DNA from: a virus
Reading direction: 5' to 3' (one strand)
UHGV virus genome: UHGV-1360357
Length of the DNA stretch: 29,070 nt
Shown: positions 723 through 16,852 of the stretch, in pieces
Numbering within the stretch: position 1 is the first letter of the stretch
How the letters are laid out: every line of letters begins with the position of its first letter
The notes under the pieces: model-generated
What the model was told of the DNA's origin: nothing
Database searches by the model: none
Seen by the model: the letters and a program-made list of their open reading frames with translations, nothing else
Position numbers and translations under genes: made by a program

Positions 723-744
723 GGCATAAACAACAGAGGTGGAT

Positions 745-1181: not shown

Positions 1182-1272
1182 GCACCTATAGCAGATTTGC
1201 GAGTCTGCTATGTGAGCAATGTCGCTCGTAACTAAACAGGAGTCGACTTGTTCTGATTATTGGAAATCTTCT

Positions 1273-1302
1273 TTGCCCTCCAGTGTGAGGGCAATTTTTT
1301 TT
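1273..1302 (+). terminator. strong hairpin plus T8 intrinsic terminator
   Basis: TTGCCCTC-cagtgt-GAGGGCAA stem-loop followed by TTTTTTTT, immediately upstream of a GGAGG RBS and ATG 1315. Confidence 0.6.
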
Positions 1303-1314
1303 GATGGAGGAATT

Positions 1315-1731: not shown

Positions 1732-1814
1732 GCCGCCAAGCGCGGCTTTACCGCATACCAATAACGCTTCACTTGAGGCGTTTTCGTTATGCAATCAAAC
1801 AGAAGGAGCATCCT

Positions 1815-1985
1815 ATGCAACAGTTCGCTATTGCAGGGGCGGCATCGGTTCGCCCTTTCAACCCAATTTTATCGGTGCAGCATTCACGAAAAAACATTTT
1901 AACCGGAGCAGACTTTAAACAACCAAGAATGAAAAGTTTGCTCGAAAAGCTTTGGGATATTTTGAAACAACAAGGCCGCCCATGA
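1815..1985 (+). CDS. small protein (56 aa) with lambda CIII-like termini (possible FtsH-inhibitor family)
   Basis: ATG 1815 with AAGGAG RBS; N-terminus MQQFAIAG and C-terminal SLLEKLWDILKQQG resemble lambda CIII (MQYAIAG ... ESLLERI ... IDILNQPG) as recalled from memory; position upstream of the recombination genes fits the cIII/kil slot. Confidence 0.35.
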   Translation: MQQFAIAGAASVRPFNPILSVQHSRKNILTGADFKQPRMKSLLEKLWDILKQQGRP

Positions 1986-2140
1986 GTTTTACAGATAACT
2001 GGTCAGACGAAGAATTCATTCTTCAGATGAAAGAATTAATCGGTAACGAAGGAGATATTCATGTCACTTGCAACCACAGTGAAGGAGAGCAAGTTACAGA
2101 GACGCATGTACACGCAGAAAGCTCTCTGGTATCGCCATAA
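1982..2140 (+). CDS. hypothetical small acidic protein (52 aa), at the kil-like position
   Basis: ATG 1982 overlapping the upstream stop (ATGA); 52 codons; no recognisable domain. Confidence 0.35.
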   Translation: MSFTDNWSDEEFILQMKELIGNEGDIHVTCNHSEGEQVTETHVHAESSLVSP

Positions 2141-2239
2141 TGGCGACCGCGAAGGAATGCGGGTATGCCTTAATTTGTCCCGAGTCGAAGTATTAAATCA
2201 GCGTTATTTCCTTGGGCCGTGTCCATTCTGAGGTGAATT

Positions 2240-2947
2240 ATGGATTTGAATAAATTCGATGAGCCATTCAGCCCTGAAGATATCGAATGGCGAATACAGC
2301 AAAGCGGTAAAACACGCGATGGCAAAGTGTGGGCTATGGTGCTGGCTTATGTCACGAACCGGGCAATCATGAAACGCCTGGACGATGTTTGCGGCAAAGC
2401 AGGATGGCGCAATGAATACCGCGATATTCCCAACAACGGCGGAGTTGAATGCGGCATATCAATCAAAATTGATTCCGAATGGGTAACCAAATGGGATGCT
2501 GCTGAAAACACGCAAGTAGAAGCCGTCAAAGGTGGTCGTTCCGGTGCAATGAAGCGCGCTGCCGTTCAATGGGGAATCGGTCGGTATCTGTATAACCTTG
2601 AGGAAGGTTTCGCACAAACATCTCTCGATAAAAAGCAGGGGTGGCACAGGGCAAAACTGAAGGATGGAACAGGGTTTTACTGGCTCCCTCCAACGCTGCC
2701 CGGCTGGGCAATCCCAGCATCAGATAACAAACCATCACCAGAAAATACCAACCAGAAATCTCCATCGGTTGACTGCGAACAAATCCTGAAAGACTTCAGC
2801 GATTATGCATCGAAAGAAACTGATAAGAAAAAACTCATCGAGCGTTATCAGCGTGACTGGCAATTAATGGCTGGAAACGAGGAGGCGCAGGCTAAATGCG
2901 TTCAGGTAATGAACATCAGAGTTAACGAGCTAAAACAGGCGGCATAA
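2240..2947 (+). CDS. Rad52/22-family single-strand annealing protein (phage recombinase)
   Basis: GAGGTGA RBS; 235 aa; contains the Rad52-family signature region KGGRSGAMKRAAVQWGIGRYLY. Confidence 0.85.
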   Translation: MDLNKFDEPFSPEDIEWRIQQSGKTRDGKVWAMVLAYVTNRAIMKRLDDVCGKAGWRNEYRDIPNNGGVECGISIKIDSEWVTKWDAAENTQVEAVKGGRSGAMKRAAVQWGIGRYLYNLEEGFAQTSLDKKQGWHRAKLKDGTGFYWLPPTLPGWAIPASDNKPSPENTNQKSPSVDCEQILKDFSDYASKETDKKKLIERYQRDWQLMAGNEEAQAKCVQVMNIRVNELKQAA

Positions 2948-3463
2948 ATGGCAAGCAGAGGCGTAAATAAGGTGATCATTATTGGTCGCCTTGGGCATGA
3001 TCCAGAAATCAGATATTCACCATCAGGAACGGCATTTGCAAACCTTACAGTTGCTACGTCAGAACAATGGCGTGATAAGCAAACTGGAGAGCAAAAGGAG
3101 CAGACGGAGTGGCACCGCGTGGTAATGAGCGGGAAACTGGCAGAAATTGCCAGCGAATATCTGCGAAAAGGCTCTGAGGTTTATCTTGAAGGAAAATTGC
3201 GGACAAGAAAATGGCAGGATCAAAGCGGACAGGATCGGTTCACTACTGAAGTCATCGTGGGCGTTGGTGGAACTATGCAAATGATTGGTGGCAAGCAAGG
3301 AGGCAATGAACAGTCTTCACCTCAGCGAAATGACGGTCAGCAACAAAGACAACAACCTCAGCAGCAAGGGAATCACAGCGAACCACCTATGGATTTTGAC
3401 GACGATATCCCCTTTGCACCAGTAACTCTCCCTTTCCCTCGTCACGCTATTCACGCAATTTAA
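2948..3463 (+). CDS. ssb: single-stranded DNA-binding protein
   Basis: N-terminal OB fold ([23 protein letters not shown]...), Gly/Gln-rich linker and acidic C-terminal tail ending DDDIPF, typical of bacterial/phage SSB; start ATG adjacent to the annealase stop. Confidence 0.9.
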
Positions 3464-3471
3464 GGACTTAC

Positions 3472-4020
3472 ATGAATCACTTGATGGTTGACCTTGAAAC
3501 AATGGGCAACGGGCCATACGCGCCAGTTATTTCTGTTGGGGCGGTATTCTTTGACCCGAATACCGGAGAAACAGGAGAAGAGTTCTCGGTAAATATCTCG
3601 CTTGAGTCATCAATGCGATATCGGGCGCGTCCTGACGCTTCAACGATTTTATGGTGGCTGGAACAGAGTGAAGAAGCCAGAAAATCGCTAACCAGCAACA
3701 CTCAAGAGCTTTCAACGGCTCTTTCATGGTTATCTGAATTCATCATAAAGAACGCCAACCACAAACTCGTTCAGGTTTGGGGGAATGGAGCATCATTTGA
3801 CTGCGTTATTCTCCGCAACAGTTATTCGCTGACAGGGAAGCCAGTTCCGTGGCAGTGGTGGAATGACCGCGACGTAAGAACAATCGTCGAACTTGGGAAG
3901 GTAATAGGATTCGATCCTAAGCGAGATATGCCATTCAAAGGAACTCGCCACAACGCGCTTGATGATGCCATCCACCAAGCCAAATACGTTTCAGCGATCT
4001 GGAAAAAGTTAGCTAAATAA
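3472..4020 (+). CDS. DnaQ-like DEDDh 3'-5' exonuclease
   Basis: Exo I motif VDLETMG, Exo II GNGASFDCVIL, Exo III HNALDDAIHQAKY; 182 aa; AAGGA RBS. Confidence 0.85.
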   Translation: MNHLMVDLETMGNGPYAPVISVGAVFFDPNTGETGEEFSVNISLESSMRYRARPDASTILWWLEQSEEARKSLTSNTQELSTALSWLSEFIIKNANHKLVQVWGNGASFDCVILRNSYSLTGKPVPWQWWNDRDVRTIVELGKVIGFDPKRDMPFKGTRHNALDDAIHQAKYVSAIWKKLAK

Positions 4021-4037
4021 TCAACAGGAGAAAAACC

Positions 4038-4331
4038 ATGCCAGCGCCTCTGTATGGTGCGGATGACCCGCGCCGCTGTTCCGGCAATTCCGTATCGGAG
4101 GTGCTGGATAAATTCAGAAAAAACTACGATCGAATAATGTCTCTACCACAGGAAACGAAAGAGGAAAAGGAATTTCGCCACTGTATATGGCTTGCAGAGA
4201 AAGAAGAACGAGAGCGAATTTACCAGACATCAATCCGACCATTCCGCAAAGCCACATATACCCACTTCCCTGAAATTGACCCGCGCCTACGTAATTACCG
4301 CTCACGCTATGGCGCTATCAGTAATGACTGA
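4038..4331 (+). CDS. hypothetical protein (97 aa)
   Basis: ATG 4038 with AGGAG RBS; basic/acidic mixed small protein. Confidence 0.5.
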
Positions 4332-4341
4332 GGAATTTACC

Positions 4342-4506
4342 ATGAGAGGACTTGCATACAATCCCGGCACTCTTCCGGCAGAAATGATTATTCGCCAACG
4401 CATAAAGCCAATGCCATCGAGAGAGGAATTGCTTAAGAGAAATTCTTTTCCTTCAGTGAATCAAAACAAATATCTGAATGCGATGTGGCGGAGTGGGAAG
4501 AAATGA
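4342..4506 (+). CDS. hypothetical small protein (54 aa; alternative start 4324)
   Basis: In-frame ATG 4342 preceded by GAGGAA; the track ORF from 4192 overlaps the previous gene and was trimmed; stop overlaps the next start (ATGA). Confidence 0.3.
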
Positions 4507-4949
4507 AACAAATATCACTAATTGAGATGGATGGTTTTCTGAAAGGTAAATGCATCCCACGAGATTTAAAGGTTAACGAAACAAATGCTGAATATCTGGT
4601 GCGTAAATTTGCTGAAGCTGAGGCCAAGTGCGCGGCACTGGCGGTGGAGAATGCGGGAATAAAGTCTGCAATTCCTCAACTACGGGATATTGATGCTGAC
4701 AATGACAATATGGATGACGTATCTCTTGCTGAAGACTTCGGATTCAATCATGCAATAGAACGGATGAGGAGACAGATACCTGAAACCCCAGCCACCGATG
4801 CTTTTCTGGCTGAAGTGCGGGCGCAGGGTGTGGATTCAGCGATTAACACAGTCATTGCGATGATGAACCATCAGCATCCTGTCACATCGAAGGCAATCGA
4901 CATAATGCGCGTCCATGCCTACCAAATTCGCAAAGGAGTGCAGTCATGA
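4503..4949 (+). CDS. hypothetical protein (148 aa), early-region accessory protein
   Basis: ATG 4503 with GGAG...GAAGAA upstream and overlapping the previous stop; Ala/Glu-rich helical sequence. Confidence 0.55.
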
Positions 4950-5194
4950 GTACTCGTCGCAAAATTAACAAAATTCTGAAAGAGAAAGGCCTGACGGCTA
5001 ATGTCGAGTACGACGGAAGCGGTGCCGGTAGAGATGAATATGGTTGGTGGACCGTTACTTTCGAACCGGCATCTGCTGATTTTATTCGTCTTAAGCTGAA
5101 TGAGCCCGAATTCACTGGCTCGATAGAATTTTGCGAACTCGAAGATGGGTTTGAGCAGCTTTCGGAGTTACCCGCAGTGGAGGCCGCCCAATGA
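4946..5194 (+). CDS. hypothetical protein (82 aa)
   Basis: ATG 4946 overlapping the previous stop, AAGGAG RBS. Confidence 0.55.
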   Translation: MSTRRKINKILKEKGLTANVEYDGSGAGRDEYGWWTVTFEPASADFIRLKLNEPEFTGSIEFCELEDGFEQLSELPAVEAAQ

Positions 5195-5715
5195 GCAACA
5201 TCGACAAACAGGTGCTGCGTGAAAAGGCAGAGAAAGCAACGAGTGGTGTGTGGTCGCTCGAATATGGAGAGGAGAGATTTGATGCTGGTGATGCGCTAAT
5301 TCATCGTGAAGTTGTTGGATATCTTCCCATTTGCAGAATTGAAGGAGCGCATCCTGAAAGCGGTTTCGATGAAGATTTCCAAATGGAACAGCAGGCCAAT
5401 GCTGAATTCATCGCCGCAGCCAGTCCGGCTACTGTGCTGGCGCTGCTGGATGAGCTGGAGAAGATGCAGGCGCAATCGTCCAAATGGTGCGAAGCCTTCC
5501 ATAAAGCCGTTTCCGTTGGCGCTCGGTATGAGGAGCGGATTGCTGAACTGGAGGCTCGGGAGCAGAAGAATTTAGCGGAGGAGCGCCAACGTGTGATTGA
5601 TGGTCTTTGCACTATCGGTGAAACGGCGTGGGAAATTGAGGAGTACATGAAAGAATGGGACGCAAAGCACCCGCATGAAGCGGCCACCGCTGGCATTGGC
5701 GTGAAGGGGGAGTGA
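5191..5715 (+). CDS. Ead/Ea22-like protein
   Basis: 174 aa; contains the characteristic EQQANAEFIAAASPATVLALLDELEKMQ segment of the lambdoid Ea22-like family; GGAGG RBS, ATGA overlap. Confidence 0.7.
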   Translation: MSNIDKQVLREKAEKATSGVWSLEYGEERFDAGDALIHREVVGYLPICRIEGAHPESGFDEDFQMEQQANAEFIAAASPATVLALLDELEKMQAQSSKWCEAFHKAVSVGARYEERIAELEAREQKNLAEERQRVIDGLCTIGETAWEIEEYMKEWDAKHPHEAATAGIGVKGE

Positions 5716-5716
5716 G

Positions 5717-5917
5717 ATGGCTACCGTAACAGAAATTCGAGCAAAGCTGCGTGCCGGTGAAGTAGTGATTATGCCGGGGAATTCTGTATTCCTGTTCATG
5801 AGTGAATGCGAGCGCCACCTGGAAGGTGATGAATGCTACCACATCGAACCTCACTCTCATGGGTACTCAAAAGTTTTCGACCCTAAGCGGGCGAAAGGAG
5901 AACACCATGACAACTAA
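5717..5917 (+). CDS. hypothetical small protein (66 aa)
   Basis: ATG 5717 with GGGGGAG RBS; Cys/His-containing (C-x-R-H ... C-Y-H ... H-S-H). Confidence 0.5.
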   Translation: MATVTEIRAKLRAGEVVIMPGNSVFLFMSECERHLEGDECYHIEPHSHGYSKVFDPKRAKGEHHDN

Positions 5918-6434
5918 CAACCACCCGGCGCACGGCCCTGTATCACTCGATCGCCTGCACCAGATACGCGAAGTACTCAGCAAAGCAGCAGCACAAAGCG
6001 ACGGCGGTAATCTCGGCTACGCAATGGCTGATGCTGTCAAGGTGATTGATAAGGCTATTGCTGCGTTTAATGCGGAGCTTTATGTTCCTACCGTTCAGTG
6101 CTGGTCATGCAGAGAGGTTATTGAAGTTTCCGCAGTAGGTGACTGTGATGGTTATTGCCCGAAATGCGACTCGCCAATTGATCTCGATGAAGAGCCATAC
6201 GATGCCGCCATACTTCAGGCTGGCAACTCTCCGGTGATTCCGGATGGTTGGATAAGCTGTAGTGAGCGAATGCCGGATAAGTTAATTCCGGTAATGGTCA
6301 TGTATGAAGACGGTGAGATGTGGTCTGCAATGTGGAATGGCAATCGCTGGGATGATGGCACCGAATATCCGGATCCGCACTCAGTTACGCACTGGCGTGA
6401 AATGCCAGCAGCACCACAGCAGGAGGTGAAGTGA
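5907..6434 (+). CDS. DUF551-like protein with CxxC...CxxC zinc-ribbon (175 aa)
   Basis: ATG 5907 with AAAGGAGAA RBS (the track start at 5802 is an upstream alternative start overlapping the previous ORF); zinc ribbon CWSC...CPKC; C-terminal WISCSERMPD...HWREMP resembles the DUF551 domain common in lambdoid early regions. Confidence 0.65.
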   Translation: MTTNNHPAHGPVSLDRLHQIREVLSKAAAQSDGGNLGYAMADAVKVIDKAIAAFNAELYVPTVQCWSCREVIEVSAVGDCDGYCPKCDSPIDLDEEPYDAAILQAGNSPVIPDGWISCSERMPDKLIPVMVMYEDGEMWSAMWNGNRWDDGTEYPDPHSVTHWREMPAAPQQEVK

Positions 6435-6712
6435 TGTACTCCTTCGCGAAATATACGATTATTGACTGGATAGCCTTCCTTCAGGTTTTGCTCATCTGGT
6501 TTTATATGGCTTACAGGAGTGGACAGTGGATTGTCAGTGTATCCTGTAGCAAGGGATGGCGTTGGTGGAACCGAAAGAATAAAAAAGCGCTGGCCTTGGA
6601 TTCGTTTTACGAAGCATTCAATCTTAACAGTCTTCAGCCTGGTTCTGTCATTGTAGTCACCACTCAAAGCGGCATGACCATTCAGATTCATAAACCAAAA
6701 GAGGAAAAATGA
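6434..6712 (+). CDS. hypothetical protein (92 aa) with N-terminal hydrophobic segment
   Basis: ATG 6434 seven nt after AGGAGG; hydrophobic N-terminus (IIDWIAFLQVLLIWFYMAY). Confidence 0.45.
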   Translation: MYSFAKYTIIDWIAFLQVLLIWFYMAYRSGQWIVSVSCSKGWRWWNRKNKKALALDSFYEAFNLNSLQPGSVIVVTTQSGMTIQIHKPKEEK

Positions 6713-6798
6713 TGTGGCCTATATGTGTTAATTGCGGACGGATGTGCCTATCTGGATGGTGCCGAAAGTGCGACAAATGCACGAAGAAAAGACAATAA
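6709..6798 (+). CDS. 29-aa Cys-rich micro-protein (MMWPICVNCGRMCLSGWCRKCDKCTKKRQ)
   Basis: ATG overlapping the upstream stop, AAGAGGAAAA RBS; six Cys in 29 residues (CxxC, CxxxC, CxxC spacing). Confidence 0.3.
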   Translation: MMWPICVNCGRMCLSGWCRKCDKCTKKRQ

Positions 6799-6857
6799 CA
6801 ATCCTCGCACTCGCGGGGATTTCTTTTATCTGAACTCGCTACGGCGGGTTTTGTTTT

Positions 6858-7169
6858 ATGGAGATGATTATGGTCTGTTCAACATTCAACCATCTAACGT
6901 TACAGAAATACCAGCCGGACCCTGAAGATTTATGCTCACTGTGTGGCGGAAATCATGGTAAAGCCGCCATGATCGAATGTAAGGACAAAATCCACATTTG
7001 CCTTAATTGCGTTGATGTCCTCGTTGATATCAAAAATGAGAGAGAAGATAAAAAGCGTAGCGAGGCTGTTCGCGCCTTAGATTCATGGATGCGGGATGGA
7101 TATAGTGCCGCGCAAATTTATGACTTAGCAATATCAAAAGGCGAAATACCAGGAGTACGCATCGAATAA
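6858..7169 (+). CDS. hypothetical zinc-finger protein (about 100 aa; likely start 6864-6870)
   Basis: CSLCGG ... CLNC Cys pairs; GGAG 6 nt upstream of ATG 6870; last gene before xis. Confidence 0.5.
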   Translation: MEMIMVCSTFNHLTLQKYQPDPEDLCSLCGGNHGKAAMIECKDKIHICLNCVDVLVDIKNEREDKKRSEAVRALDSWMRDGYSAAQIYDLAISKGEIPGVRIE

Positions 7170-7210
7170 GACGTAACCAATATTCGAATTGAAGAACTGA
7201 AAGAAAACCA

Positions 7211-7233
7211 AGCCGCCTGATGGCGGTTTTTTC
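7211..7233 (+). terminator. hairpin plus T6, putative intrinsic terminator upstream of xis
   Basis: GCCGCC-tgat-GGCGG(T) stem followed by TTTTTT. Confidence 0.45.
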
Positions 7234-7247
7234 TTGCGTGTAATTGC
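7234..7247 (+). promoter_or_regulatory. cII-type activator box TTGC-N6-TTGC (PI-like int promoter -35 region)
   Basis: TTGCgtgtaaTTGC directly upstream of the xis start, matching the TTGC-N6-TTGC CII recognition pattern known for lambda PI/PRE/PaQ. Confidence 0.5.
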
Positions 7248-7259
7248 GGAGACTTTGCG

Positions 7260-7478
7260 ATGTACTTGACACTTCAGGAGTGGAACGCACGCCAACGACG
7301 CCCAAGAAGCCTTGAAACAGTTCGTCGATGGGTACGCGAGTGCAGGATATTCCCTCATCCGGTTAAGGATGGAAGAGAGTATCTGTTCCACGAATCAGCG
7401 GTAAAGGTTGACTTAAATCGACCAGTAACAGGTAGCCTTTTGAAGAGGATCAGAAATGGGAAGAAGGCGAAGTCATGA
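7260..7478 (+). CDS. xis: excisionase Xis (lambda-type)
   Basis: 72 aa, MYLTLQEWNARQRRPRSLETVRRWVRECRIFPHPVKDGREYLFHESAVKVDL..., recognised as lambda Xis; overlaps the int start as in lambda. Confidence 0.9.
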   Translation: MYLTLQEWNARQRRPRSLETVRRWVRECRIFPHPVKDGREYLFHESAVKVDLNRPVTGSLLKRIRNGKKAKS

Positions 7479-8526
7479 GCGCCGGGATTTACCCCCTAAC
7501 CTTTATATAAGAAACAATGGATATTACTGCTACAGGGACCCAAGGACGGGTAAAGAGTTTGGATTAGGCCGAGACAGGCGAATCGCAATCACTGAAGCTA
7601 TACAGGCCAACATTGAGTTATTTTCAGGACACAAACACAAGCCTCTGACAGCGAGAATCAACAGTGATAATTCCGTTACGTTACATTCATGGCTTGATCG
7701 CTACGAAAAAATCCTGGCCAGCAGAGTAATCAAGCAGAAGACACTCATAAATTACATGAGCAAAATTAAAGCAATAAGGAGGGGTCTGCCTGATGCTCCA
7801 CTTGAAGACATCACCACAAAAGAAATTGCGGCAATGCTCAATGGATACATAGACGAGGGCAAGGCGGCGTCAGCCAAGTTAATCAGATCAACACTGAGCG
7901 ATGCATTCCGAGAGGCAATAGCTGAAGGCCATATAACAACAAACCCTGTCGCTGCCACTCGCGCAGCAAAATCAGAGGTAAGGAGATCAAGACTTACGGC
8001 TGACGAATACCTGAAAATTTATCAAGCAGCAGAATCATCACCATGTTGGCTCAGACTTGCAATGGAACTGGCTGTTGTTACCGGGCAACGAGTTGGTGAT
8101 TTATGCGAAATGAAGTGGTCTGATATCGTAGATGGATATCTTTATGTCGAGCAAAGCAAAACAGGCGTAAAAATTGCCATCCCAACAGCATTGCATGTTG
8201 ATGCTCTCGGAATATCAATGAAGGAAACACTTGATAAATGCAAAGAGATTCTTGGCGGAGAAACCATAATTGCATCTACTCGTCGCGAACCGCTTTCATC
8301 CGGCACAGTATCAAGGTATTTTATGCGCGCACGAAAAGCATCAGGTCTTTCCTTCGAAGGGGATCCGCCTACCTTTCACGAGTTGCGCAGTTTGTCTGCA
8401 AGACTCTATGAGAAGCAGATAAGCGATAAGTTTGCTCAACATCTTCTCGGGCATAAGTCGGACACCATGGCATCACAGTATCGTGATGACAGAGGCAGGG
8501 AGTGGGACAAAATTGAAATCAAATAA
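7456..8526 (+). CDS. int: tyrosine integrase Int (lambda-type)
   Basis: 356 aa; N-terminal arm-binding domain MGRRRSHERRDLPPNLYIRNNGYYCYRDPRTGKEFGLGRDRR, catalytic region with the conserved R...H-x-x-R...Y residues (HELRSLSARL, LLGHKSDTMASQY); recognised as lambda Int. Confidence 0.95.
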   Translation: MGRRRSHERRDLPPNLYIRNNGYYCYRDPRTGKEFGLGRDRRIAITEAIQANIELFSGHKHKPLTARINSDNSVTLHSWLDRYEKILASRVIKQKTLINYMSKIKAIRRGLPDAPLEDITTKEIAAMLNGYIDEGKAASAKLIRSTLSDAFREAIAEGHITTNPVAATRAAKSEVRRSRLTADEYLKIYQAAESSPCWLRLAMELAVVTGQRVGDLCEMKWSDIVDGYLYVEQSKTGVKIAIPTALHVDALGISMKETLDKCKEILGGETIIASTRREPLSSGTVSRYFMRARKASGLSFEGDPPTFHELRSLSARLYEKQISDKFAQHLLGHKSDTMASQYRDDRGREWDKIEIK

Positions 8527-8529
8527 TGA

Positions 8530-8760
8530 TTTTATTTTGACTGATAGTGACCTGTTCGTTGCAACAAATTGATAAGCAATGCTTTTTTATAATGCCAACT
8601 TAGTATAAAAAAGTTGAATGTGAAACGGTAAAAACAATTAATATCAACAGCTTATAATTGATTCAGTCTAAAAAATAGACTGCATAATGCTACAAAACAC
8701 AACATATCCAGTCACTATGAATCAACCACTTAGATGGTATTAGTGACCTGTAACAGAGCA
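8530..8760. other. attP attachment site (P' arm - core - P arm), lambda-type
   Basis: Core TTAGTATAAAAAAG at 8600-8613 (reverse complement of the lambda common core GCTTTTTTATACTAA, one mismatch at the edge); arm-type Int sites containing GTCACTAT on both sides (8539-8554 tandem, 8706-8715, 8741-8750). Both arms look phage-derived. Confidence 0.8.
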
Positions 8761-8802
8761 TTAGCGCAAGGTGATTTTTTTGTCTTCTTGCGCTAATTTT
8801 TT
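8761..8802 (+). terminator. sib / tI retroregulation hairpin and terminator
   Basis: TTAGCGCAAG ... CTTGCGCTAA 10-bp stem followed by TTTTTT, matching the lambda sib/tI sequence as remembered; lies distal to attP relative to int. Confidence 0.75.
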
Positions 8803-8989
8803 GTCAACACACTGGGTTAGCTGAATTTACAACCACGCTCAGTATCTCGATAAGCGCAGAGAAATGATGCAGTGGTGGGCGGACTGGCTTGATGAAAAGG
8901 TTGAGTGAACGACATTATGAACAACAGGAGAACACACAAAACCTCGCAAAAATTACAAAGATTTGTGTGTTAGTACTTATCATTGCGAT

Positions 8990-10936
8990 TTAAAGAATAA
9001 TTCTTTCAACCTTCCAAGTTGCAGATCTACTTCCTGAAATTCCAACTCCATTTGAATCTTTGAGAAGAATTCTAAATGATGTTTCTGTTACCAAATCATA
9101 CGTTGCATTTATTGCTGCGCCATCTCCTATCGATATTGAGATAAAATCAGGCACAACTCCAAGTCCGTGAGTTATTATTTGTCCATTTGAATAAACCCCA
9201 GTTCCTATTTTAGTCGTTGCATACCCGGCATTGTTTGCAAGGACAACATTAACCGAATTTGCTCCTAATTTAGCAATCTTCCTATCAGATGAAATCTCTG
9301 TAGATTGTATTGCATTATTTGAAATAACTGCATCTTTTATAGCCCTGAAATCTCCAGGTGTTCCTGATACAGCATTAACAAGTATTGCATACTGCATACT
9401 TCTATCACTTCTTTTATTGCCGAAAGCATTACCGCAAATTGTTGTCCCGGTAAATCCAGATGCTCCCGTGTTATCAAGAAGAATTCCGCACCTATATGTA
9501 TTTGATGTATCAGAAGGCAAACCTATACCTCTTATGGAATTATTGGATACTATATTATTATCTGGCTTGACATTTGCATTATTGCAGTAAATGCGAATTC
9601 CAACATCACAAAATGCATCTAATACATTATCAGATATAACATTACCCGCTCCCCACACATCAATACCCATAAACGAATCAGCACCATCTCCAAAAAATTT
9701 ATTTTGAGTAACTATTGTTCCGCTACCCCTAATCAATATAGCAGGCCTTGGAATGCTTGAAGTCTTTTTGCTATCATTGTAGCCATGATTATCGTTTATA
9801 TGAGATTCCCCCCCCGCACTATCTATGCAGCAATTACACGAATCTATTATATTTTTATTTATCCTTACATAGACAGAATCGTGTTTTATACCTGTAATAA
9901 AATTTGATATGGAATTTGATACAAAACTAGTTGCCTTACATGGCAATGAAACGCCATGTATAGCGTCCTTAGACGCTCCTATGGCAACAAAATGTATCCC
10001 TGTAACAATTGCTGGGTTCTCATTAGATGATGTGTCACCTATGGTAATAGCAAAAGAATTCTCATCTTCAGGACCATCAATTGTTAATATCGTTTGTGGC
10101 GTATATCCTTGAGATATTTGCGATCCATTTCCTGAACCAAACCCTCTCATACTTACAAAAGATGGGATTCTTAGTTTTTCTGTTACTCTACAGTTGCCCC
10201 CCCAAAAAAATTCCTCTTTAACATGGGCAGCGGCCAGCATGATTGGAATTGTATCATCTTTAACTCCATCAAGCGTCGCTCCATAATTTCTAAGGTCATT
10301 GGTTTCATACCCATTTAAATAACCAATACATCTCCATCCTGTTGAGGTATATCTGGCAAATTTATCATCTGGGGGAACAGTAAAAGGAGGAACTGTCATT
10401 TCTCCTCCAGTTATTTCATTTTCATATACCCAAAACAACCCATCATAATCTTTGATTGCGCATCGGTTGTCTCGAATGATATTTTGCTTGTCATAGTTCC
10501 CACAATATGAAAAACCAGTTGCTAATTTCTGTAGATTTGTTCCTGATGCTGAGTTTATTAATGATGCGCCATTTTCGCTAGTTAATACATTATTTAGAGG
10601 GTCAGGATCATACTTCAGCACATTAGGAAAATAGAACTGCTGCGCACCGTACGCATCATAAACAGCCATAGAATGGCCTTGCACGGTTACGAATTTGGCA
10701 ATCTGTCCGTTATATGCAGGATACCCGCCAGCGTTAATGATGATTGGCTGTGCAACAGGAACGTGAGAACCGTCTTCATTCTCTACATAAACCTGAATCT
10801 GGTTTTCAGGATTTACCGGGTCAGTGTCAATTTTTCCGATATAAATTTTGCCATTGGCAACCGCTTTAAAAGAACGCGCCATAGTGAAGAGTTGCGAAGG
10901 CATGCTTACCACAACATTTGCGGTGATATCTGTCAT
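8990..10936 (-). CDS. tailspike protein (P22 gp9 family; conserved head-binding domain, divergent receptor-binding beta-helix)
   Basis: 648 aa; first ~115 residues ([58 protein letters not shown]...) match the P22/HK620-type tailspike head-binding domain; the rest is Asn/Gly/Ser-rich with beta-helix-like repeats but unrelated to the P22 endorhamnosidase domain. Confidence 0.9.
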
Positions 10937-11036: not shown

Positions 11037-11993
11037 TCAGTAGTTATGTACTGAAGGAGGTAATTCTTTATTCTTAAGTCTCATCCATGCGGAAAGATTC
11101 GTTGGTCCGTCTGGCTCATTGATATCAACATCTCGTGTGTGATTGATTAAAACGTCTCTCGCCATATCGATAATACGGGAGAACTCATAACCGCAGTCAT
11201 GACATCTGCCGGAATAGTTCGATTGAATTTGTTTTAGCGCCGGATACAATTCGCGGAATAATGCCTGTGAGCGGTTGGCATAATCCCATAACCATACAAG
11301 GCTGTTTGCTTCTTTTGCAGAAAGCTCGTCGGTTTTCTTCTCTTGTTTGCCGATAAATTCACCTTCAAGCACTACCCTGTGGATGTACTCTACGGCCAGC
11401 GGGATTTGTTCAATTGAAAGTTCATCAATGCTGTCAATGCCAAAACGCTGATGAACCATATTGTATGCATCGTCATAGCGAAGTCCTTTCTTTCCTACCA
11501 GCATGTTTACTGCATCGCGTAGCGGTGTGCGTTCAGCTACTGAAGTTTTACCGCCAATAGCCTTCCTCTCTTGTGTGGCAGTAACTATTGCGTCATATGC
11601 GCGGATAACCTTCAGCGCAAATGCTGCGCTAATCCACATGGCGTAGGAGTAAACAAGCTCCTTGCACACGTATGTTCCACCATATCTACCTTTCTTAGAA
11701 ATGACGGGATTCTTATTCTGCATATCCGCAGAATTAAAAATTTCATTAATCAATTCAATAGTTTCATTTCTACGCATGAAGAAAGCTGGCTGATGTTTTT
11801 CCTCCTTTCCAGACGCTACATGAAGGTCATTAAGCGAGTAACGACCCTCTGAATCCATATGAATCTTGACGTCAGAAATGATGATGCTATTAGTGCAATT
11901 TACAGTTGACTTTGCTAAGCTTGACATATCAATAATACCTCGTAAGTTTTGTTGATACCGAAGCCCTGACTGTTCCCGCAGTTGGGGCTTCAC
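11037..11993 (-). CDS. ant: KilA-N domain antirepressor-like protein at the ant position
   Basis: 318 aa; N-terminal KilA-N-like motif (...[13 protein letters not shown] ... [23 protein letters not shown]); located downstream of arc and upstream of the tailspike as P22 ant is; the symbol is by position, orthology to P22 Ant unverified. Confidence 0.6.
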
Positions 11994-12211
11994 TGTTTTT
12001 GTAAGTCACTGTAGCTATAAAGCCACTGACCACTCATTTTTGATTTGATTGACTCTACTGAGTCACGGCAAGGAATGATTCCGCCTGACATCATTCTGAT
12101 CTCCGTAAATTCACCACTCCTTATCGATTCAATGCCATCAATGTTAACTAAAGATTTACCTCTACCAAGTGCATTCTCATAGCCAATCTCATCAACCTCA
12201 ATAAATCTCAT
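11990..12211 (-). CDS. hypothetical protein (73 aa) inserted between arc and ant
   Basis: ATGA overlaps at both ends (with the arc stop and the ant start) indicate translational coupling; no recognisable domain. Confidence 0.5.
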
Positions 12212-12348
12212 ACCGTTATCCCCTCTCTCTTCAAGCTGTCCATCACCCGTTTAATTACTTCTGCGCTAAATGAGCGACACTCTTCCTTTGCTTTTTCTTC
12301 AAGAATTTTTTCTAGCTTCTCTGGCATACGCAGTGTTTTTACCTTCAT
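12208..12348 (-). CDS. arc: Arc-like ribbon-helix-helix repressor (46 aa)
   Basis: Found by hand (below the 60-aa track cutoff): [46 protein letters not shown], aligning with P22 Arc (...FNLRWPREVLDLVRKVAEENGRSVNSEIYQRVMESFKKEGRIGA); GGAGG RBS. Confidence 0.7.
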   Translation of the reverse strand: MKVKTLRMPEKLEKILEEKAKEECRSFSAEVIKRVMDSLKREGITV

Positions 12349-12453
12349 TGCATCCTCCGTTGTATGTGGTACGCATACATAGTATTTAGGTACGCATTGA
12401 TAGTCAATAGATACCTACATATCCTGTGGTAAAAAATTATTCAGGATGCGCCT
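12349..12453. promoter_or_regulatory. divergent Pant/Pmnt-type promoter-operator region
   Basis: 105-bp intergenic region between divergent arc and mnt; inverted repeat TGTATG-N7-CATACA (12361-12379), direct repeats GGTACGCAT spaced 21 bp (12368, 12389), inverted repeat ATCCTG-N14-CAGGAT (12421-12446) overlapping the mnt RBS. Confidence 0.5.
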
Positions 12454-12705
12454 ATGTCTGATCGTAAGTACAAAAACCCTCAAGTGAATCTGAGGCTTCC
12501 TGTAGAGATAAAGGAACGTCTTATTGAACTGGCTGAGGCTAATTCTCGTTCATTAAATGCTGAGATGGTAGCAGCACTTGAGGCATGGACTGAAAAAAAT
12601 AAACATATTCAAGCACTAGATCTTGCAACTATAGCATCGCGGTTGATAGAGCTTGAGCATGAGGTTGAGAAGTTAAAATCTATACATGGCAACAGTGAAA
12701 AATGA
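12454..12705 (+). CDS. mnt: Mnt-like ribbon-helix-helix repressor
   Basis: 83 aa; PQVNLRLPVEIKERLIELAEANSRSLNAEMVAALEAW aligns with P22 Mnt (PHFNFRMPMEVREKLKFRAEANGRSMNSELLQIVQDAL); divergent from arc as in P22 immI. Confidence 0.75.
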   Translation: MSDRKYKNPQVNLRLPVEIKERLIELAEANSRSLNAEMVAALEAWTEKNKHIQALDLATIASRLIELEHEVEKLKSIHGNSEK

Positions 12706-13016
12706 AACGTATCGCTATTTTGTTAATATTGTTCTTCTCTACAATAGTTTTCGCCAAACCAAAATCAGATAATGGCGATCTTAAAGGCCTGCAAGAACTC
12801 ATGATAACTTCGAAATTTGCTGGCATGTGCGGCACAATCAAACAAATGGCAACATTTCAAGAATCAACAAAAATGCCTGGCGGAGATGAGTTCTTACAGC
12901 GTTTTCTGACCACAGAGCAAGCAAGACTAGGAATGAATCCACAGGAATTTCTTGAAGCATGCCAGAAGTCAATTTCAGCTTATACCAATTATTACAATCT
13001 AACTTCTGATAAATAA
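12702..13016 (+). CDS. secreted (signal-peptide) protein, 104 aa, unknown function
   Basis: ATGA-coupled to mnt; N-terminal signal peptide MKRIAILLILFFSTIVFA with an AxA-like cleavage site; mature part contains two Cys. Confidence 0.65.
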   Translation: MKRIAILLILFFSTIVFAKPKSDNGDLKGLQELMITSKFAGMCGTIKQMATFQESTKMPGGDEFLQRFLTTEQARLGMNPQEFLEACQKSISAYTNYYNLTSDK

Positions 13017-13041
13017 TAGAAAGGATTTTATAAATAACTTT

Positions 13042-13527
13042 ATGAAAAAATCACTATTAATTGTCCCGCTTCTGCTGGCTGGATGCGCAAAAGTAAGTGA
13101 CTACCAAGCAAGTTGCGAACAACGCTATCCAAAGCTTAGTGATATGGCTAATTGCCTTGATGCCAGCGTGAAGAACGACTCACGCATGGCATCAGCACCA
13201 ACACCTAAGCTGTATGTCCTTGCTGCGAAGATGCTCGGGCAAGGTGTCGATCAAGGCAAGATAAGTGACGCACAGGCAAGACTTGAGCTTCAGAATCTTT
13301 ATGTTCAATTACAAAGCCAAGAACAAGCCCAACAAATAGCACAAAGCCAAGCATTCCAGCAGGCTTTATTGAATTATCAGGCTGTAAACACAATGCAAGC
13401 GATCGAGCAAAAAGCGCGCCAGCCTGTTATAACTCAACCTTACCCAACACGCGTTGACACATATACAAACTGCAATTCAGGTTTTGGAAACACGGTAACA
13501 TGCAACAGTAGCAGTAATATCAGGTAG
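13042..13527 (+). CDS. lipoprotein (lipobox LLAGC, +2 Ala), 161 aa, Gln-rich
   Basis: MKKSLLIVPLLLAGC lipoprotein signal; residue after the Cys is Ala (not Asp), consistent with outer-membrane sorting; Gln-rich helical middle, Cys/Asn-rich C-terminus. The RBS is weak or distant. Confidence 0.65.
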   Translation: MKKSLLIVPLLLAGCAKVSDYQASCEQRYPKLSDMANCLDASVKNDSRMASAPTPKLYVLAAKMLGQGVDQGKISDAQARLELQNLYVQLQSQEQAQQIAQSQAFQQALLNYQAVNTMQAIEQKARQPVITQPYPTRVDTYTNCNSGFGNTVTCNSSSNIR

Positions 13528-13541: not shown

Positions 13542-15389
13542 TTATTGCTGTTCTGCTGTAATTTGGCTTGAAAGTATAGGGCGTATCGCATTTGCAGCAT
13601 TATTTAGCGCTCTTTCATAGGCTGGTGTTCCTGCTTTGGTGTTTGCCAAACGTAAGAGAGCATTCCTTGCTGCTTTGGACTCATACAAGCGCATCATTGC
13701 ACCGAAACCAGCCTCAAGCCCCATTGATACGCCAAGAGTCGCAGTTGCGCCAATCGTCCTTATCCTGTTGGCTTGCGATTGCCCCGTCTGAGTTACTACA
13801 TTTGCGGTGTCTGACCTTGCTGTTTGCTGCAGAACTTCATGAAGAGCATCAAGTTCTTTCATGTGCTTTCCAGAAAAAATAGTGTTGTAAATTTCACCGC
13901 CTGACTGAGATTTCAGCTTATTAACTTCAGTGATGAACTTGGCTGGAGAGTCACCGGCCTTTTCCGCTATTTTGCTGACGTAAGCTGCACGCATAGCATC
14001 TTTCCCTTTATCATCCAGTGCGCTCCAGATTCGTTTCACGTCAGATGGTTTTCTGCTTAATACAACGGTATTTATAAGTTCAGGACTGGCTTCACTGCTT
14101 GCCTTGTTGAGTTTGTTAGCAATGTTTTTATTAAGCACCTTATTATAAACGTTTGCATAATCGGAATTTGCTTTAAGGTATTTTGCTGCGTCTGATGCAC
14201 CGAGGTTTTTAGCAACTGCGTTACGAAGGTCTTTTGACATTGCATTCTCTACCATATTGGTAGCTGCTTTTGCCTGGTTGGGGAAGACCATAGCATCTCC
14301 CTGAACATTAGATCTAAATGCTGTTCTGTGCTGACGCAAGAGATCAAACGTAACATCCAAATCAGTTGCAGGGTTTGCTAATTCTTCACGTAGGTTACGC
14401 AAGGATGTAAGCAGGCTTTGATTGGCAGACGTCCCAAGTCGTTCCTGTCTTGCGATCGCTGTATTCAGAGCATTCATGGTATTTGTGGTATCAACTGCGG
14501 CATTACCCATTTTATTGGTGACGTCATTGATAACAGCGCCAGCGGCATCCTTCCTCCCCCTTAACGTGGTGGTCAGAGATTTCACCACATCATCAGGGTT
14601 GTACTCACCAAAACGGTCAAAATAATTACTTACCAGCTTACTACGCGTTGCATATTGCTCCGCTCGCTTTGAGCCTGTCCCGAGCAAAGCCCCCTCGGCA
14701 TCCTGAGTAAGGCCGCGAGTGAAAGCATTTTTCGGCGGGATAACATCAGATGTCATTGGTGTCACGCCCATCGATTCTGATGTGGCAATTTTCTTCGCCA
14801 CTTCTGGCGCAATATCACCTTTTATAGCCGTTATTCCACGCCCTATTCCCTTTGCTGCGGCGGAAAGAACACCCTGAGCGGCAAGGTTAACTCCGGCATT
14901 TTTAGCTGCATTTTGTGCGAAATCGCCTTTCTGATTTGCGGCCTCTGCCAGTGATCCAATAGCCATGCTTCCTGCCGTTCCAACTCCTGGAACTAAATAC
15001 CCACCAATTGTTTCACCGGCTTGTGCGTAGGGGTCTGTCGGTCTGTCTACTGGACGATAAACATCATCCAAAACCTTGGGTCCACCAAGCCCCTGACTGA
15101 TTGCATTAATCAGACTTGCGCCACCCTGCAATACGTCAAATGGTATGTTTACCAGACCACGACCAGCCTGTTCTGCAATTTGCCCTGCACTTTGACCACC
15201 AGTGAGCCAATCGCCAGCTTGTTGCATCAATGATGGTTCTTCCCGTGTTGGTGCATTATTGTCCTGATTAACTGTTTGTTGCTGAACAGCCTGACCAGCA
15301 AAATACTCATCAATGGCGGCCCCAATATCTTCCGTGCTCGTACCATCAGGGAAGGTAAATGTCTTACCGTTTGCAGTTACTTTCATCAT
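13542..15389 (-). CDS. ejection (injection) protein, P22 gp16 homolog
   Basis: 615 aa; N-terminus (M)[32 protein letters not shown]; size and position match P22 gp16. Confidence 0.8.
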
Positions 15390-16852
15390 TCCACCGTAAA
15401 TTGAATGCCTGATTTTGAGGTATATGATCCGGATTGACTCTGCTGCTGTTGGGTATTTGTCGGTTGTTGGCTATTGCTCTGTTGTTGACTATTTGCAGCA
15501 CTTGAAACCACCAAAGCATCATAAACGCGACCAGACTGACCACGTAATGAGTTATATTGGCCCTGCATTTTTCGCATTTTTGTTTCAGTAGCAGCCTTGG
15601 AATCACCGGGCTGAGGCAGGTACATTTTGGAATACTCCTGCATCTCTGGCAGAGTAATTGCTGCACCTGTTTCTGGGCGCAAAATTGCATACAAGGCGTC
15701 TCTCGCATTTACCATATATTGCTGCTCCGCTGGTGATAGGCTTAAATTTGCAATAGTCCCATCACCAAGAGAGCGATTTATTAATGCAACTCGCTTAGGG
15801 TCAATGCTTTTACTAAGCTGATTCATTGAGTCCATTGAATCTTTTAATCGCAAAGCAAATCCTGCCGCCTTCTTGGAACCCTCATTAGCCTTATCTATGA
15901 TGCTTTGCGCTTGTGGCAAGCTAATTGGTTTAATGCCATCACCAGATATAGGTTGGTTTAGTTTTCCTGCTTCCTCGCTGCCATCGGTGTAATACTTAGT
16001 TACCGAGCCATCAGGATTGGTTTCAACCTTAAGTAATTTCTTAGCATTGGGATTAATTCCCGCCGCTGCCGCAAATGCCGCTGCACCATCTGGATCCGCC
16101 TTTAACATTTGCGCGTACTGATTGTAATTCTGCATTGCGGCTGTTGGTGCATATGCTGACGTTAACGCATTTGCTCGGCTAATATCCTGCCCTCTCGCCT
16201 GAAGTGCTTCGCTGGCCTGATTGCTGCGGATTGTCTCTGCCAGCCTGCCTCGGTCAATTTCACGACCAGCCATCTTGTCCTGAACATTGAAGTAATCAAT
16301 CGGACCAAGCGCAGCCATCCCAAGATGATCAACAAACTCACCAAATCCTGAAGGATTCTGCTGATACATCTGAGCAACGCTGTTAGGGTCAACACCGACG
16401 CGAGTCAGTTCCTTGGCGTTGTTTTGCAGCCATGATTGCATTGCTTCTGGAGACGATGACGCAAGGCGTGCGCCAGCCGCTAAGGTGCCGATAGAATTAC
16501 GCTGGTCTTCATCAATGAATCCCATGCCTTTACGAACGGATTCAATCTGGTCTGGATATTGAGTAGCCAACTGACGCAAAGCACCGCGATCACCAGACGC
16601 ATAAGCATTAGCGTATGCCTGCTGAAATTCTTTCTGCCGCTGAGCCTGCTTTTCCTGCTGAAACACCCCCGCAATACCTGAAAGGCCTTGCAAAGCAGTC
16701 AGCCCAACATTGTTAGCGCCTGAACGCTCAATATCATTGTTCTTCCTGATAAGCTGAAGCGTATTGCCGATGTCATTTACGCTCGGAGCGTTTGAGTTGA
16801 CGCCGCCGATACCAGCCAACAATCCGCCGTTTGTTCCTTGCCAAGTAGCCAT
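15386..16852 (-). CDS. ejection protein, P22 gp20 homolog
   Basis: 488 aa; Gln/Ala-rich; position between the gp7 and gp16 homologs; ATGA coupling to gp16. Confidence 0.8.

What the first reader, a model, noticed from the sequence alone, without database searches (positions are those of the whole stretch)
12349..13527. mnt is translationally coupled to a secreted protein and an outer-membrane-type lipoprotein where P22 carries sieA
The Mnt-like repressor gene stops inside ATGA, which starts a 104-aa signal-peptide protein. A 161-aa lipoprotein (lipobox LLAGC, +2 Ala, Gln-rich) follows, then convergent ejection-protein genes. In P22 this slot, between gene 16 and mnt and transcribed from Pmnt in the lysogen, holds sieA, which blocks DNA entry of superinfecting phage. 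Here a two-protein envelope pair, unrecognisable to me, occupies it. That makes it a candidate lysogen-expressed superinfection-exclusion or host-envelope-modifying module. One idea is that it acts in the periplasm or outer membrane against the gp7/gp20/gp16 trans-envelope channel of incoming P22-like phages. A Bor-like lysogenic-conversion role is an alternative.
Basis: partly seen in the sequence, partly recalled or inferred. Interest (0 to 1): 0.7.

Follow-up and report, generated by a model that had tools for sequence, protein, structure and literature searches.

The report
Prophage envelope-protein cargo genes behind mnt
In this P22-like prophage, the slot where phage P22 carries its superinfection-exclusion gene sieA holds two unrelated, independently shuffled cargo genes of unknown function, one for a small secreted protein and one for an outer-membrane-type lipoprotein, which makes the lipoprotein a reasonable but untested candidate for a new exclusion factor.

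Summary
The sequence observation holds. An Mnt-like repressor gene (12454-12705) ends inside ATGA, which starts a 104-aa signal-peptide protein (12702-13016). A 161-aa lipoprotein gene (13042-13527) follows and converges on homologues of P22 genes 16 and 20.

- **Not a pair.** Only 10 of 80 related viral contigs that carry ORF161 also carry ORF104.
- **ORF161.** Its stop lies 5-93 nt from the gene-16 stop in 77 of 77 evaluable contigs, next to three different gp16 types. It never co-occurs with SieA type A or B. It is found in 186 of 5426 complete E. coli genomes, including O104:H4 outbreak strains.
- **ORF104.** It belongs to a family of more than 300 clusters of two-cysteine secreted proteins across Proteobacteria. 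In phages this gene often sits directly behind Mnt/Arc-type repressor genes, including in siphovirus-type contigs.
- **P22 correction.** P22's sieA has its own annotated promoter after a terminator. It is not annotated as driven by Pmnt.

Neither protein matches Pfam, PADLOC or PDB, by sequence or by fold.

My best reading is two independent envelope cargo genes expressed in the lysogen. ORF161 is a positional alternative to SieA and a plausible exclusion factor. Function is untested.

The parts
12379..12425 (.). Divergent, overlapping promoter-like sites: Pmnt-like on + (12397-12425) and Pant-like on - (12407-12379). An 18-nt-arm imperfect palindrome at 12383-12421 is a candidate operator.
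   Evidence: Promoter scan, although 2 sites were found against 4.1 expected by chance in the region. Inverted repeat I1. The layout matches the annotated P22 Pant/Pmnt arrangement.
12454..12705 (+). mnt-like ribbon-helix-helix repressor gene, 83 aa
   Evidence: PF03869 Arc at E 2.8e-10, above cutoff. phrog_795 at E 1e-23. 47% identity to the P22 Mnt N-terminus, with the same length.
12702..12705 (+). ATGA overlap of the mnt stop and the ORF104 start (translational coupling)
   Evidence: Read from the sequence. Conserved in 22 of 22 related loci.
12702..13016 (+). ORF104: a Sec-type signal peptide (about residues 1-18) followed by a mature protein of about 86 aa. The model shows a three-helix fold. 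Cys43 and Cys87 are invariant, as is the core of the FQESTKMPGGDEF motif.
   Evidence: phrog_19844 at E 7e-64, function unknown. Alignments A2 and A3. A profile search found 310 clusters. AF2 model with pLDDT 74.9. N-terminal and cysteine statistics.
13042..13527 (+). ORF161: a lipoprotein with lipobox LAGC15 and Ala at +2. It has a disulfide-type N-terminal helical domain (about residues 18-95, Cys25 and Cys38), a Gln-rich helix (about 96-125), a Pro-rich linker, and a C-terminal Cys144-x9-Cys154 hairpin.
   Evidence: phrog_6067 at E 3e-109, function unknown. PGAP names the 99% identical gene 'lipoprotein'. Alignment A1. AF2 model. Lipobox present in 80 of 80 relatives.
13542..15389 (-). Ejection-protein gene, homologue of P22 gene 16, convergent with ORF161 across a 14-nt gap
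   Evidence: 75% identity to P22 gp16 over 611 aa.
15386..16852 (-). Ejection-protein gene, homologue of P22 gene 20
   Evidence: PF16928 Inj_translocase at E 1.3e-77.
12208..12348 (-). arc-like repressor gene, 46 aa, divergent from mnt
   Evidence: PF03869 at E 2.9e-9.
11929..11994 (+). sar antisense RNA of the immI region
   Evidence: Rfam RF00262 at 61.7 bits, E 1.2e-10. Terminator-like hairpin at 11960-11991.
11037..11993 (-). ant antirepressor gene. The real start is probably the ATG near 11927.
   Evidence: PF10548 P22_AR_C at E 8e-28 and a KilA-N domain.
8990..10936 (-). Tailspike gene with a P22-type head-binding domain. It marks the other edge of the slot.
   Evidence: PF09008 at E 1.6e-65.

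Best explanation
The region is the variable cargo ('moron') slot between mnt and gene 16 of a P22-like (Lederbergvirus) prophage. It holds two independent cargo genes for cell-envelope proteins.

**ORF104.** It is exported by Sec and released into the periplasm as a disulfide-bonded three-helix protein of about 86 aa. It is hitched directly behind the lysogeny-maintenance repressor gene mnt through an ATGA overlap, so it should be made whenever Mnt is made.

**ORF161.** It is processed as a lipoprotein and, having no Asp at +2, is sorted by Lol to the inner leaflet of the outer membrane. From there a helical domain, a Gln-rich helix and a small disulfide-closed C-terminal hairpin project into the periplasm.

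**Expression (inferred).** In this prophage the three genes most likely form one Pmnt-driven operon expressed in the lysogen.

**Function (inferred).** The role I consider most likely for ORF161 is that of a positional and functional alternative to SieA. It would be a prophage-expressed factor that hinders infection by incoming P22-like phages at the outer membrane or periplasm, either by interfering with the ejection-protein conduit or by occluding an outer-membrane component the phage needs. ORF104 is more likely a general lysogen-expressed periplasmic factor than a channel-specific one.

**Shown versus inferred.** Shown: gene structures, family-wide signal and lipobox conservation, genomic positions, independence of the two genes, and absence of known homologues. 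Inferred: operon expression, localisation and the exclusion function.
For: **Position**
- The ORF161 stop is 5-93 nt from the gene-16 stop in 77 of 77 evaluable IMG/VR loci, next to three gp16 sequence types.
- The same position holds in E. coli, Salmonella, Proteus, Morganella and Xenorhabdus P22-like (pro)phages.

**Alternation with SieA**
- SieA type A (P22) and type B (HS1) are absent from all 80 ORF161 loci and all 40 ORF104 loci.
- Only 22 of 66 P22-like phages carry sieA (PMC10883804).
- ORF161 is in 186 of 5426 complete E. coli genomes, against 21 for HS1-type sieA.

**Envelope targeting**
- A lipobox is present in 80 of 80 relatives, and +2 is never Asp.
- ORF104-family members have hydrophobic N-termini in 110 of 110 cases and two cysteines in 109 of 110.
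- DeepTMHMM signal-peptide notes appear on Kapi1_059.
- No further hydrophobic segment exists in either protein.

**Lysogenic-state expression**
- The ATGA coupling to mnt is conserved in 22 of 22 loci.
- No promoter-like or terminator-like site lies between mnt and the end of ORF161.
- ORF104 relatives sit behind Mnt-like repressors in siphovirus-type contigs and beside cI in Pseudomonas prophages.

**Precedent**
- Prophage lipoproteins located in structural gene clusters exclude phages that use the same outer-membrane receptor (PMC11893012).
- SieA acts on the gp16/gp20 conduit (PMC10883804).
Against: - No functional data exist for either family.
- Mutual exclusion with sieA may only reflect cassette replacement at one recombination site, and the 80 loci are closely related to one another.
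- Distant relatives of ORF161 (about 130-aa lipoproteins, 255 representative clusters) lie in non-phage chromosomal contexts. None was found in viral contigs. The fold therefore has a cellular role that need not concern phages.
- The ORF104 family also occurs outside prophages.
- In a Kapi1 lysogen, mnt transcripts were below detection (PMC12922286). Pmnt-driven expression may therefore be weak.
- The promoter scan is a weak consensus tool.
Confidence: 0.4

Rival explanations
1. Lysogenic conversion unrelated to phage exclusion. One or both proteins would alter host envelope properties, for example serum or complement resistance as with Bor/Iss, stress tolerance, colonisation, or immunity to a periplasm-acting toxin. 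The benefit would go to the lysogen, not to defence against phages.
For: - ORF104 relatives occur in many Proteobacteria, in prophages of other morphotypes, on an integrase-linked island and in plain chromosomal DNA.
- The ORF161 superfamily has non-phage chromosomal members.
- The module is carried by the O104:H4 outbreak lineage.
- Both proteins are small disulfide-bonded periplasmic or outer-membrane proteins, as many conversion and immunity factors are.
Against: - No similarity to Bor/Iss or any known conversion or immunity family.
- The close ORF161 family was found only in P22-like prophages at the SieA position. That pattern is easier to explain if the target is tied to P22-like phage biology.
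Confidence: 0.3
2. ORF104 and ORF161 form one obligate two-protein envelope module that acts jointly on the gp7/gp20/gp16 trans-envelope channel.
For: - The two genes are adjacent, on the same strand, 25 nt apart and apparently co-transcribed in this prophage.
- The exact mnt-ORF104-ORF161 arrangement recurs in 18 complete E. coli genomes.
Against: - They co-occur in only 10 of 80 ORF161 loci.
- Each gene is found alone in many phages.
- Megablast similarity to phage Gally begins at 13041, one base before the ORF161 start codon, which places a mosaic junction between the two genes.
- ORF104 relatives occur in siphovirus-type and Pseudomonas prophages that have no P22-type ejection proteins.
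Confidence: 0.07
3. A function in the lytic cycle, not in the lysogen. Examples are a lysis or egress accessory (spanin-like), or protection of progeny from being inactivated on cell debris, as with T5 Llp.
For: - Weak PHROG hits of the ORF161 N-terminus to Rz-like spanin (E 0.06) and to Cor (E 0.032).
- P22 sieA is reported to be up-regulated during induction (PMC10883804).
Against: - Those hits cover only the signal peptide, residues 1-36.
- The genes are antisense to the late operon and sense with mnt.
- They are not in a lysis cassette, and ORF161 has no C-terminal membrane segment.
Confidence: 0.05

Closest known systems
P22 SieA, types A, B and C (Leavitt et al. 2024, PMC10883804)
   Same: ORF161 occupies the same genomic slot, between gene 16 and mnt/gene 9 of P22-like prophages, on the same strand as mnt and convergent with gene 16. 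It alternates with SieA: none of 80 ORF161 loci has SieA A or B. Both are prophage cargo encoding an envelope protein.
   Different: SieA is a polytopic inner-membrane protein with the motif FxRYPxEAxxFNK. ORF161 is a lipoprotein with no membrane-spanning segment, no such motif and no sequence similarity to SieA. P22 sieA has its own annotated promoter after a terminator, whereas here the genes appear fused to the mnt operon. Exclusion by ORF161 is untested.
Outer-membrane lipoprotein exclusion factors: Cor (phi80, N15), Llp (T5) and the mEp-immI Lpp proteins (PMC11893012)
   Same: They are phage-encoded lipoproteins with a standard lipobox, are expressed from the phage genome, and sit in or near structural gene clusters. 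They provide the model for how an outer-membrane lipoprotein could block entry of related phages.
   Different: ORF161 shows no sequence relationship to them. The Cor PHROG hit has E 0.032 and covers the signal peptide only. ORF161 is about twice as long and has a helical domain plus a Cys-hairpin. Known members block a protein receptor (FhuA, OmpA or LamB), whereas P22-like phages bind O-antigen first.
Lambda Bor / Iss lysogenic-conversion lipoprotein
   Same: It is a small prophage-encoded outer-membrane lipoprotein expressed in the lysogen.
   Different: No Pfam Lambda_Bor match was found, the size and predicted fold differ, and no serum-resistance data exist for ORF161.
T4 Spackle (Sp), a periplasmic inhibitor of the incoming tail lysozyme
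   Same: Like ORF104, it is a small Sec-exported helical periplasmic protein encoded by a phage (recalled from the literature, not tested by sequence here).

Membership tests
SieA superinfection-exclusion proteins (types A-C) | Gene lies between gene 16 and gene 9/mnt of a P22-like prophage | tested here: met
   Window layout compared with the P22 record. 77 of 77 related loci place ORF161 next to gene 16.
SieA superinfection-exclusion proteins (types A-C) | Polytopic inner-membrane protein with several transmembrane helices | tested here: not met
   After residue 25, the highest 19-residue Kyte-Doolittle mean is 0.47 for ORF161 and 0.65 for ORF104. The AF2 models are soluble helical domains.
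SieA superinfection-exclusion proteins (types A-C) | Sequence similarity to SieA and the motif FxRYPxEAxxFNK | tested here: not met
   tblastn with P22 SieA and HS1 SieA found nothing in 120 related loci. The motif is absent from both window proteins. As a control, HS1 SieA matches P22 SieA at 28% identity, E 9e-23.
SieA superinfection-exclusion proteins (types A-C) | Blocks DNA injection by P22-like phages | not testable with these tools
   Requires plating and potassium-efflux assays.
Bacterial lipoproteins (SPase II substrates, PROSITE PS51257-type lipobox), for ORF161 | N-terminal basic and hydrophobic signal ending in [LVI][ASTVI][GAS]C | tested here: met
   MKKSLLIVPLLLAGC15 matches. 80 of 80 full-length close relatives match, and 103 of 134 superfamily representatives match. 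PGAP names the gene 'lipoprotein'.
Bacterial lipoproteins (SPase II substrates, PROSITE PS51257-type lipobox), for ORF161 | Outer-membrane sorting: no Asp at +2 (the E. coli Lol-avoidance rule) | tested here: met
   +2 is Ala 71 times, Val 7 times, Thr 2 times and never Asp. Localisation itself is inferred.
Cor / Llp receptor-blocking lipoproteins | Sequence homology to the Cor or Llp families | tested here: not met
   phrog_1119 (Cor) at E 0.032, covering residues 1-29 only, which is the signal peptide.
Lambda Bor / Iss | Match to the Bor/Iss family profile | tested here: not met
   No Pfam family matched ORF161 at E up to 1. No NCBIfam match reached its cutoff.
Known anti-phage defence systems (PADLOC-DB) | Match to any defence-system protein model | tested here: not met
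   0 families for Mnt, ORF104 and ORF161 at E up to 1.
Mnt/Arc ribbon-helix-helix repressors of immI (gene 12454-12705) | Arc-type RHH domain, placed divergent from arc-sar-ant | tested here: met
   PF03869 at E 2.8e-10. 47% identity to the P22 Mnt N-terminus. arc, sar (Rfam, 61.7 bits) and ant lie on the other strand.
o-spanin (Rz1-like) | Lipoprotein gene within or next to the i-spanin gene in the lysis cassette; short Pro-rich mature protein | tested here: not met
   The gene is not in a lysis cassette. The PHROG Rz-like hit has E 0.06 and covers residues 5-36 only.
T4 Spackle-like periplasmic lysozyme inhibitor (for ORF104) | Structural similarity to Sp | tested here: inconclusive

The most novel reading that the evidence does not exclude
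ORF161 founds a new class of superinfection-exclusion protein. It would be an outer-membrane-anchored lipoprotein that blocks P22-like phages from the outer-membrane or periplasmic side, by stopping assembly of the gp7/gp20/gp16 DNA conduit or tail-needle penetration. It would be the counterpart of the inner-membrane SieA, and its swappable C-terminal Cys-hairpin would set specificity. It would be roughly nine times more common in complete E. coli genomes than HS1-type sieA and is present in the O104:H4 outbreak lineage.
Probability: 0.25. Interest if true: 0.65.

Novelty: new member of a known kind. Interest (0 to 1): 0.4.

Why it matters
Two thirds of sequenced P22-like phages lack sieA (PMC10883804), and what fills that slot has not been characterised. 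ORF161 is a common occupant. It is in 3.4% of complete E. coli genomes and in prophages of at least five enterobacterial genera.

If it excludes phages, it would give a second, outer-membrane-side handle on how the P22 ejection proteins build their trans-envelope conduit. It would also bear on phage-therapy host range against E. coli and Salmonella lysogens.

The analysis also defines two sizeable uncharacterised envelope-protein families with no Pfam model. It shows that ORF104-type genes are repeatedly hitched to Mnt-type repressor genes across phage morphotypes.

If the genes prove to be ordinary conversion cargo, the finding is routine.

Tried and rejected
**Library and structure searches that found nothing useful**
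- Pfam, NCBIfam, PADLOC and PHROG searches gave only 'unknown function' families or hits limited to the signal peptide.
- The weak NCBIfam GspK hit (19 bits against a cutoff of 130) falls in the Gln-rich helix. I rejected it as compositional. One database record named 'GspK' probably inherits the same artefact.
- PDB profile searches were empty.
- The AFDB50 library was unavailable.

**Searches for distant ORF161 relatives**
- A 32-sequence alignment was too divergent to search with.
- A 9-sequence alignment found nothing in viral contigs. In genomes it found only two non-phage loci, which gave no functional clue.
- Contexts of the metagenomic superfamily members could not be looked up.

**Literature and other checks**
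- Accession searches found nothing.
- The Kapi1 lysogen RNA-seq paper has no per-gene table available for Kapi1_059.
- Megablast of siphovirus-type contig L127 against cultured phages found nothing, so its host is unknown.
- Promoter-like sites upstream of stand-alone ORF161 genes in Gally and Morganella exist, but at chance frequency. They are only weak support for an own promoter.
Full report
**1.

The window carries a canonical P22-type immI region in inverted orientation.
- The tailspike gene lies at 8990-10936 (-) and ant at 11037-11993 (-).
- The sar antisense RNA lies at 11929-11994 (+), matching Rfam RF00262 at 61.7 bits.
- arc lies at 12208-12348 (-).
- Divergent overlapping promoter-like sites and an 18-nt-arm palindrome lie at 12379-12425.
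- An 83-aa Mnt-like ribbon-helix-helix gene lies at 12454-12705 (+). It matches PF03869 at E 2.8e-10 and is 47% identical to the P22 Mnt N-terminus.

The mnt stop codon overlaps the ORF104 start in ATGA at 12702-12705. ORF161 starts 25 nt after the ORF104 stop. It ends 14 nt before the stop of a convergent gene that is 75% identical to P22 gene 16. A gene-20 homologue follows (PF16928, E 1e-77).

No promoter-like or terminator-like site was found between mnt and the end of ORF161. In this prophage the three genes therefore look like one Pmnt operon. This is an inference from a weak consensus scan.

**2. Both products are envelope proteins, and this holds across their families**

ORF104 starts MKRIAILLILFFSTIVFA|KPK.
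- All 110 family members of 95-115 aa have a hydrophobic N-terminal segment, and 109 of 110 have exactly two cysteines in the mature part.
- Cys43, Cys87 and the core of the motif FQESTKMPGGDEF are invariant.
- The Kapi1 homologue is annotated with a signal peptide at residues 1-22.
- AF2 gives three helices after the signal peptide, with pLDDT 74.9.

ORF161 has the lipobox LAGC15.
- All 80 full-length close relatives keep a lipobox, with +2 = Ala, Val or Thr and never Asp. By the E. coli sorting rule this points to the outer membrane.
- Cys25, Cys38 and Cys154 are invariant.
- AF2 (pLDDT 64.5) is confident only for a helical bundle at about residues 18-95. It suggests a Gln-rich helix and a C-terminal beta-hairpin closed by Cys144 and Cys154.
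- Neither protein has a further hydrophobic segment.

**3. The two genes are not a pair**

Of 80 IMG/VR contigs carrying ORF161 at 96% identity or more, only 10 also have ORF104.

ORF161 stands alone in several settings:
- behind mnt in Proteus phage Brookers;
- after a reverse-strand gene in phages Gally, 720R6 and VSe13;
- with no immI genes at all in Morganella prophages;
- inside a different five-gene cluster in Xenorhabdus.

The megablast match to Gally begins one base before the ORF161 start codon. A mosaic junction therefore separates the two genes.

ORF104-family genes also occur without ORF161. In an ETEC-type prophage the gene is coupled to mnt by overlapping start and stop codons. 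In Kapi1-type prophages it sits next to gene 16.

**4. ORF161 is tied to the SieA position**

- In 77 of 77 evaluable loci its stop lies 5-93 nt from the gene-16 stop.
- It sits next to Gally-type (39 loci), P22/window-type (23) and CUS-3-type (15) gp16. It therefore does not co-vary with its own phage's gp16.
- P22 SieA (type A) and E. coli HS1 SieA (type B) gave no hit in any of the 120 loci. I recovered HS1 SieA from NC_009800 and validated it at 28% identity to P22 SieA, with the published motif present.
- Leavitt et al. report that only 22 of 66 P22-like phages have sieA.
- Among complete E. coli genomes, ORF161 is in 186 of 5426, window-type ORF104 in 18, and HS1-type sieA in 21.
- The whole 1.18-kb module is 99.4% identical in O104:H4 outbreak strains.
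- The ORF161 family shows intragenic mosaicism. Two C-terminal hairpin types are exchanged at about residue 127/128, independently of the rest of the protein. This suggests a separately evolving element, possibly one that sets specificity.

**5. ORF104 is tied to lysogeny repressors, not to ejection proteins**

- A profile search finds 310 clusters with E ≤ 0.01. They span Enterobacterales, Pseudomonas, Methylophaga, Nitrosomonas and Sulfurimonas, and none has a Pfam domain.
- The ATGA junction with mnt is conserved in 22 of 22 loci.
- In three siphovirus-type contigs, which carry major tail and tape-measure genes, the gene again follows an Arc/Mnt-like repressor that is divergent from an Ant gene.
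- In two Pseudomonas prophages it lies beside the cI-type repressor gene.
- It also occurs next to an integrase on a Methylophaga island and in ordinary Sulfurimonas chromosomal DNA.

This distribution argues against a role specific to the gp7/gp20/gp16 channel. It favours a more general periplasmic function that is expressed in the lysogenic state.

**6. No known relatives were found**

- Pfam, NCBIfam and PADLOC gave nothing.
- PHROGs place both proteins in 'unknown function' families.
- The Cor and Rz-like hits cover only the signal peptide.
- A whole-library profile search shows that ORF161 belongs to a superfamily of about 130-aa four-cysteine lipoproteins, with 255 representative clusters.
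- The two genome loci recovered for those distant relatives are non-phage, and none was found in viral contigs.

**7. Correction to the premise**

The P22 record annotates a terminator after orf59a and a separate sieA promoter. Leavitt et al. used a putative PsieA. P22 sieA is therefore not documented as Pmnt-driven. Fusion of cargo genes to the mnt operon is a feature of this prophage type. In a Kapi1 lysogen, mnt transcripts were below detection, so Pmnt output may be low.

**8. Verdict**

The region is a real and accurately described cargo slot. My best reading, at confidence about 0.4 for the functional part, is two independent envelope cargo genes expressed in the lysogen. ORF161 would be a positional and possibly functional alternative to SieA, acting from the outer membrane. 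Precedents exist for lipoprotein exclusion factors (Cor, Llp, mEp Lpp) and for the ejection conduit as a target.

A conversion role unrelated to phages is nearly as likely. The obligate-pair model is disfavoured.

This is a sensible experimental lead and not a surprise. Variable cargo genes of unknown function in this slot are expected in P22-like phages.

Noticed in passing
window 11990-12211 (-), with 11929-11994 (+): An extra 73-aa ORF (phrog_11805, function unknown) sits between arc and sar/ant. Its start overlaps the arc stop in another ATGA (12208-12211). Its stop abuts the sar terminator hairpin at 11960-11991. P22 has no gene at this position. The same ORF recurs in other E. coli and Salmonella P22-like prophages (L008, L015, L123).
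   Followed up: partly
window 13423-13527 (ORF161 residues 128-161); alignment A1: The ORF161 family has two alternative C-terminal Cys-hairpin modules, ending ...TNCNSGFGNTVTCNSSSNIR or ...TTNCTTYGNQTRCQSY. They are swapped at about residue 127/128 independently of identity in the rest of the protein. Examples are P0030 (100% in residues 96-127, 21% in the C-terminus) and P0018 (69% and 94%).
   Followed up: partly
L001 3448-3867 (-) (phage Gally); the same gene in 720R6 and in about 18 IMG/VR loci: A reverse-strand 139-aa gene between mnt and ORF161 also encodes a lipoprotein (MKRIIGVVAGAILLSGC...), with a weak PEGA-domain hit (E 0.004). It is a further envelope cargo gene in the same slot.
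   Followed up: no
L127 5462-6291, L128 5497-6312, L129 5340-6252: In three siphovirus-type viral contigs, which carry major tail or tape-measure genes, an Arc/Mnt-like repressor (phrog_1388, PF03869) divergent from an Ant gene is followed by an ORF104-family gene. An immI-like module with the same cargo therefore exists outside P22-like phages. The host is unknown, and there is no match among cultured phages.
   Followed up: partly
L146 5992-6378; L147 485-850: Distant ORF161 relatives are lipoproteins of 121-128 aa with four cysteines. They lie in non-phage chromosomal DNA of a Muproteobacteria MAG (next to a convergently oriented ORF encoding what looks like a TolC-type outer-membrane protein, not checked against any library, and a large ORF that may be an RND-type efflux pump) and of Desulfatitalea alkaliphila. 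The superfamily has no Pfam model.
   Followed up: partly
L011 5609-6312 (Sulfurimonas chromosome): The ORF104 homologue there is preceded by a 131-aa ORF of unknown function whose stop overlaps its start by 4 nt. This echoes the mnt-ORF104 coupling, but the upstream protein has no RHH, Pfam or PHROG match.
   Followed up: partly
window 1-8900: The first 8.9 kb or so carries mostly plus-strand ORFs (for example 7456-8526, 356 aa) beyond the tailspike gene. This is presumably the prophage end, with O-antigen-modification or host genes. I did not annotate it.
   Followed up: no
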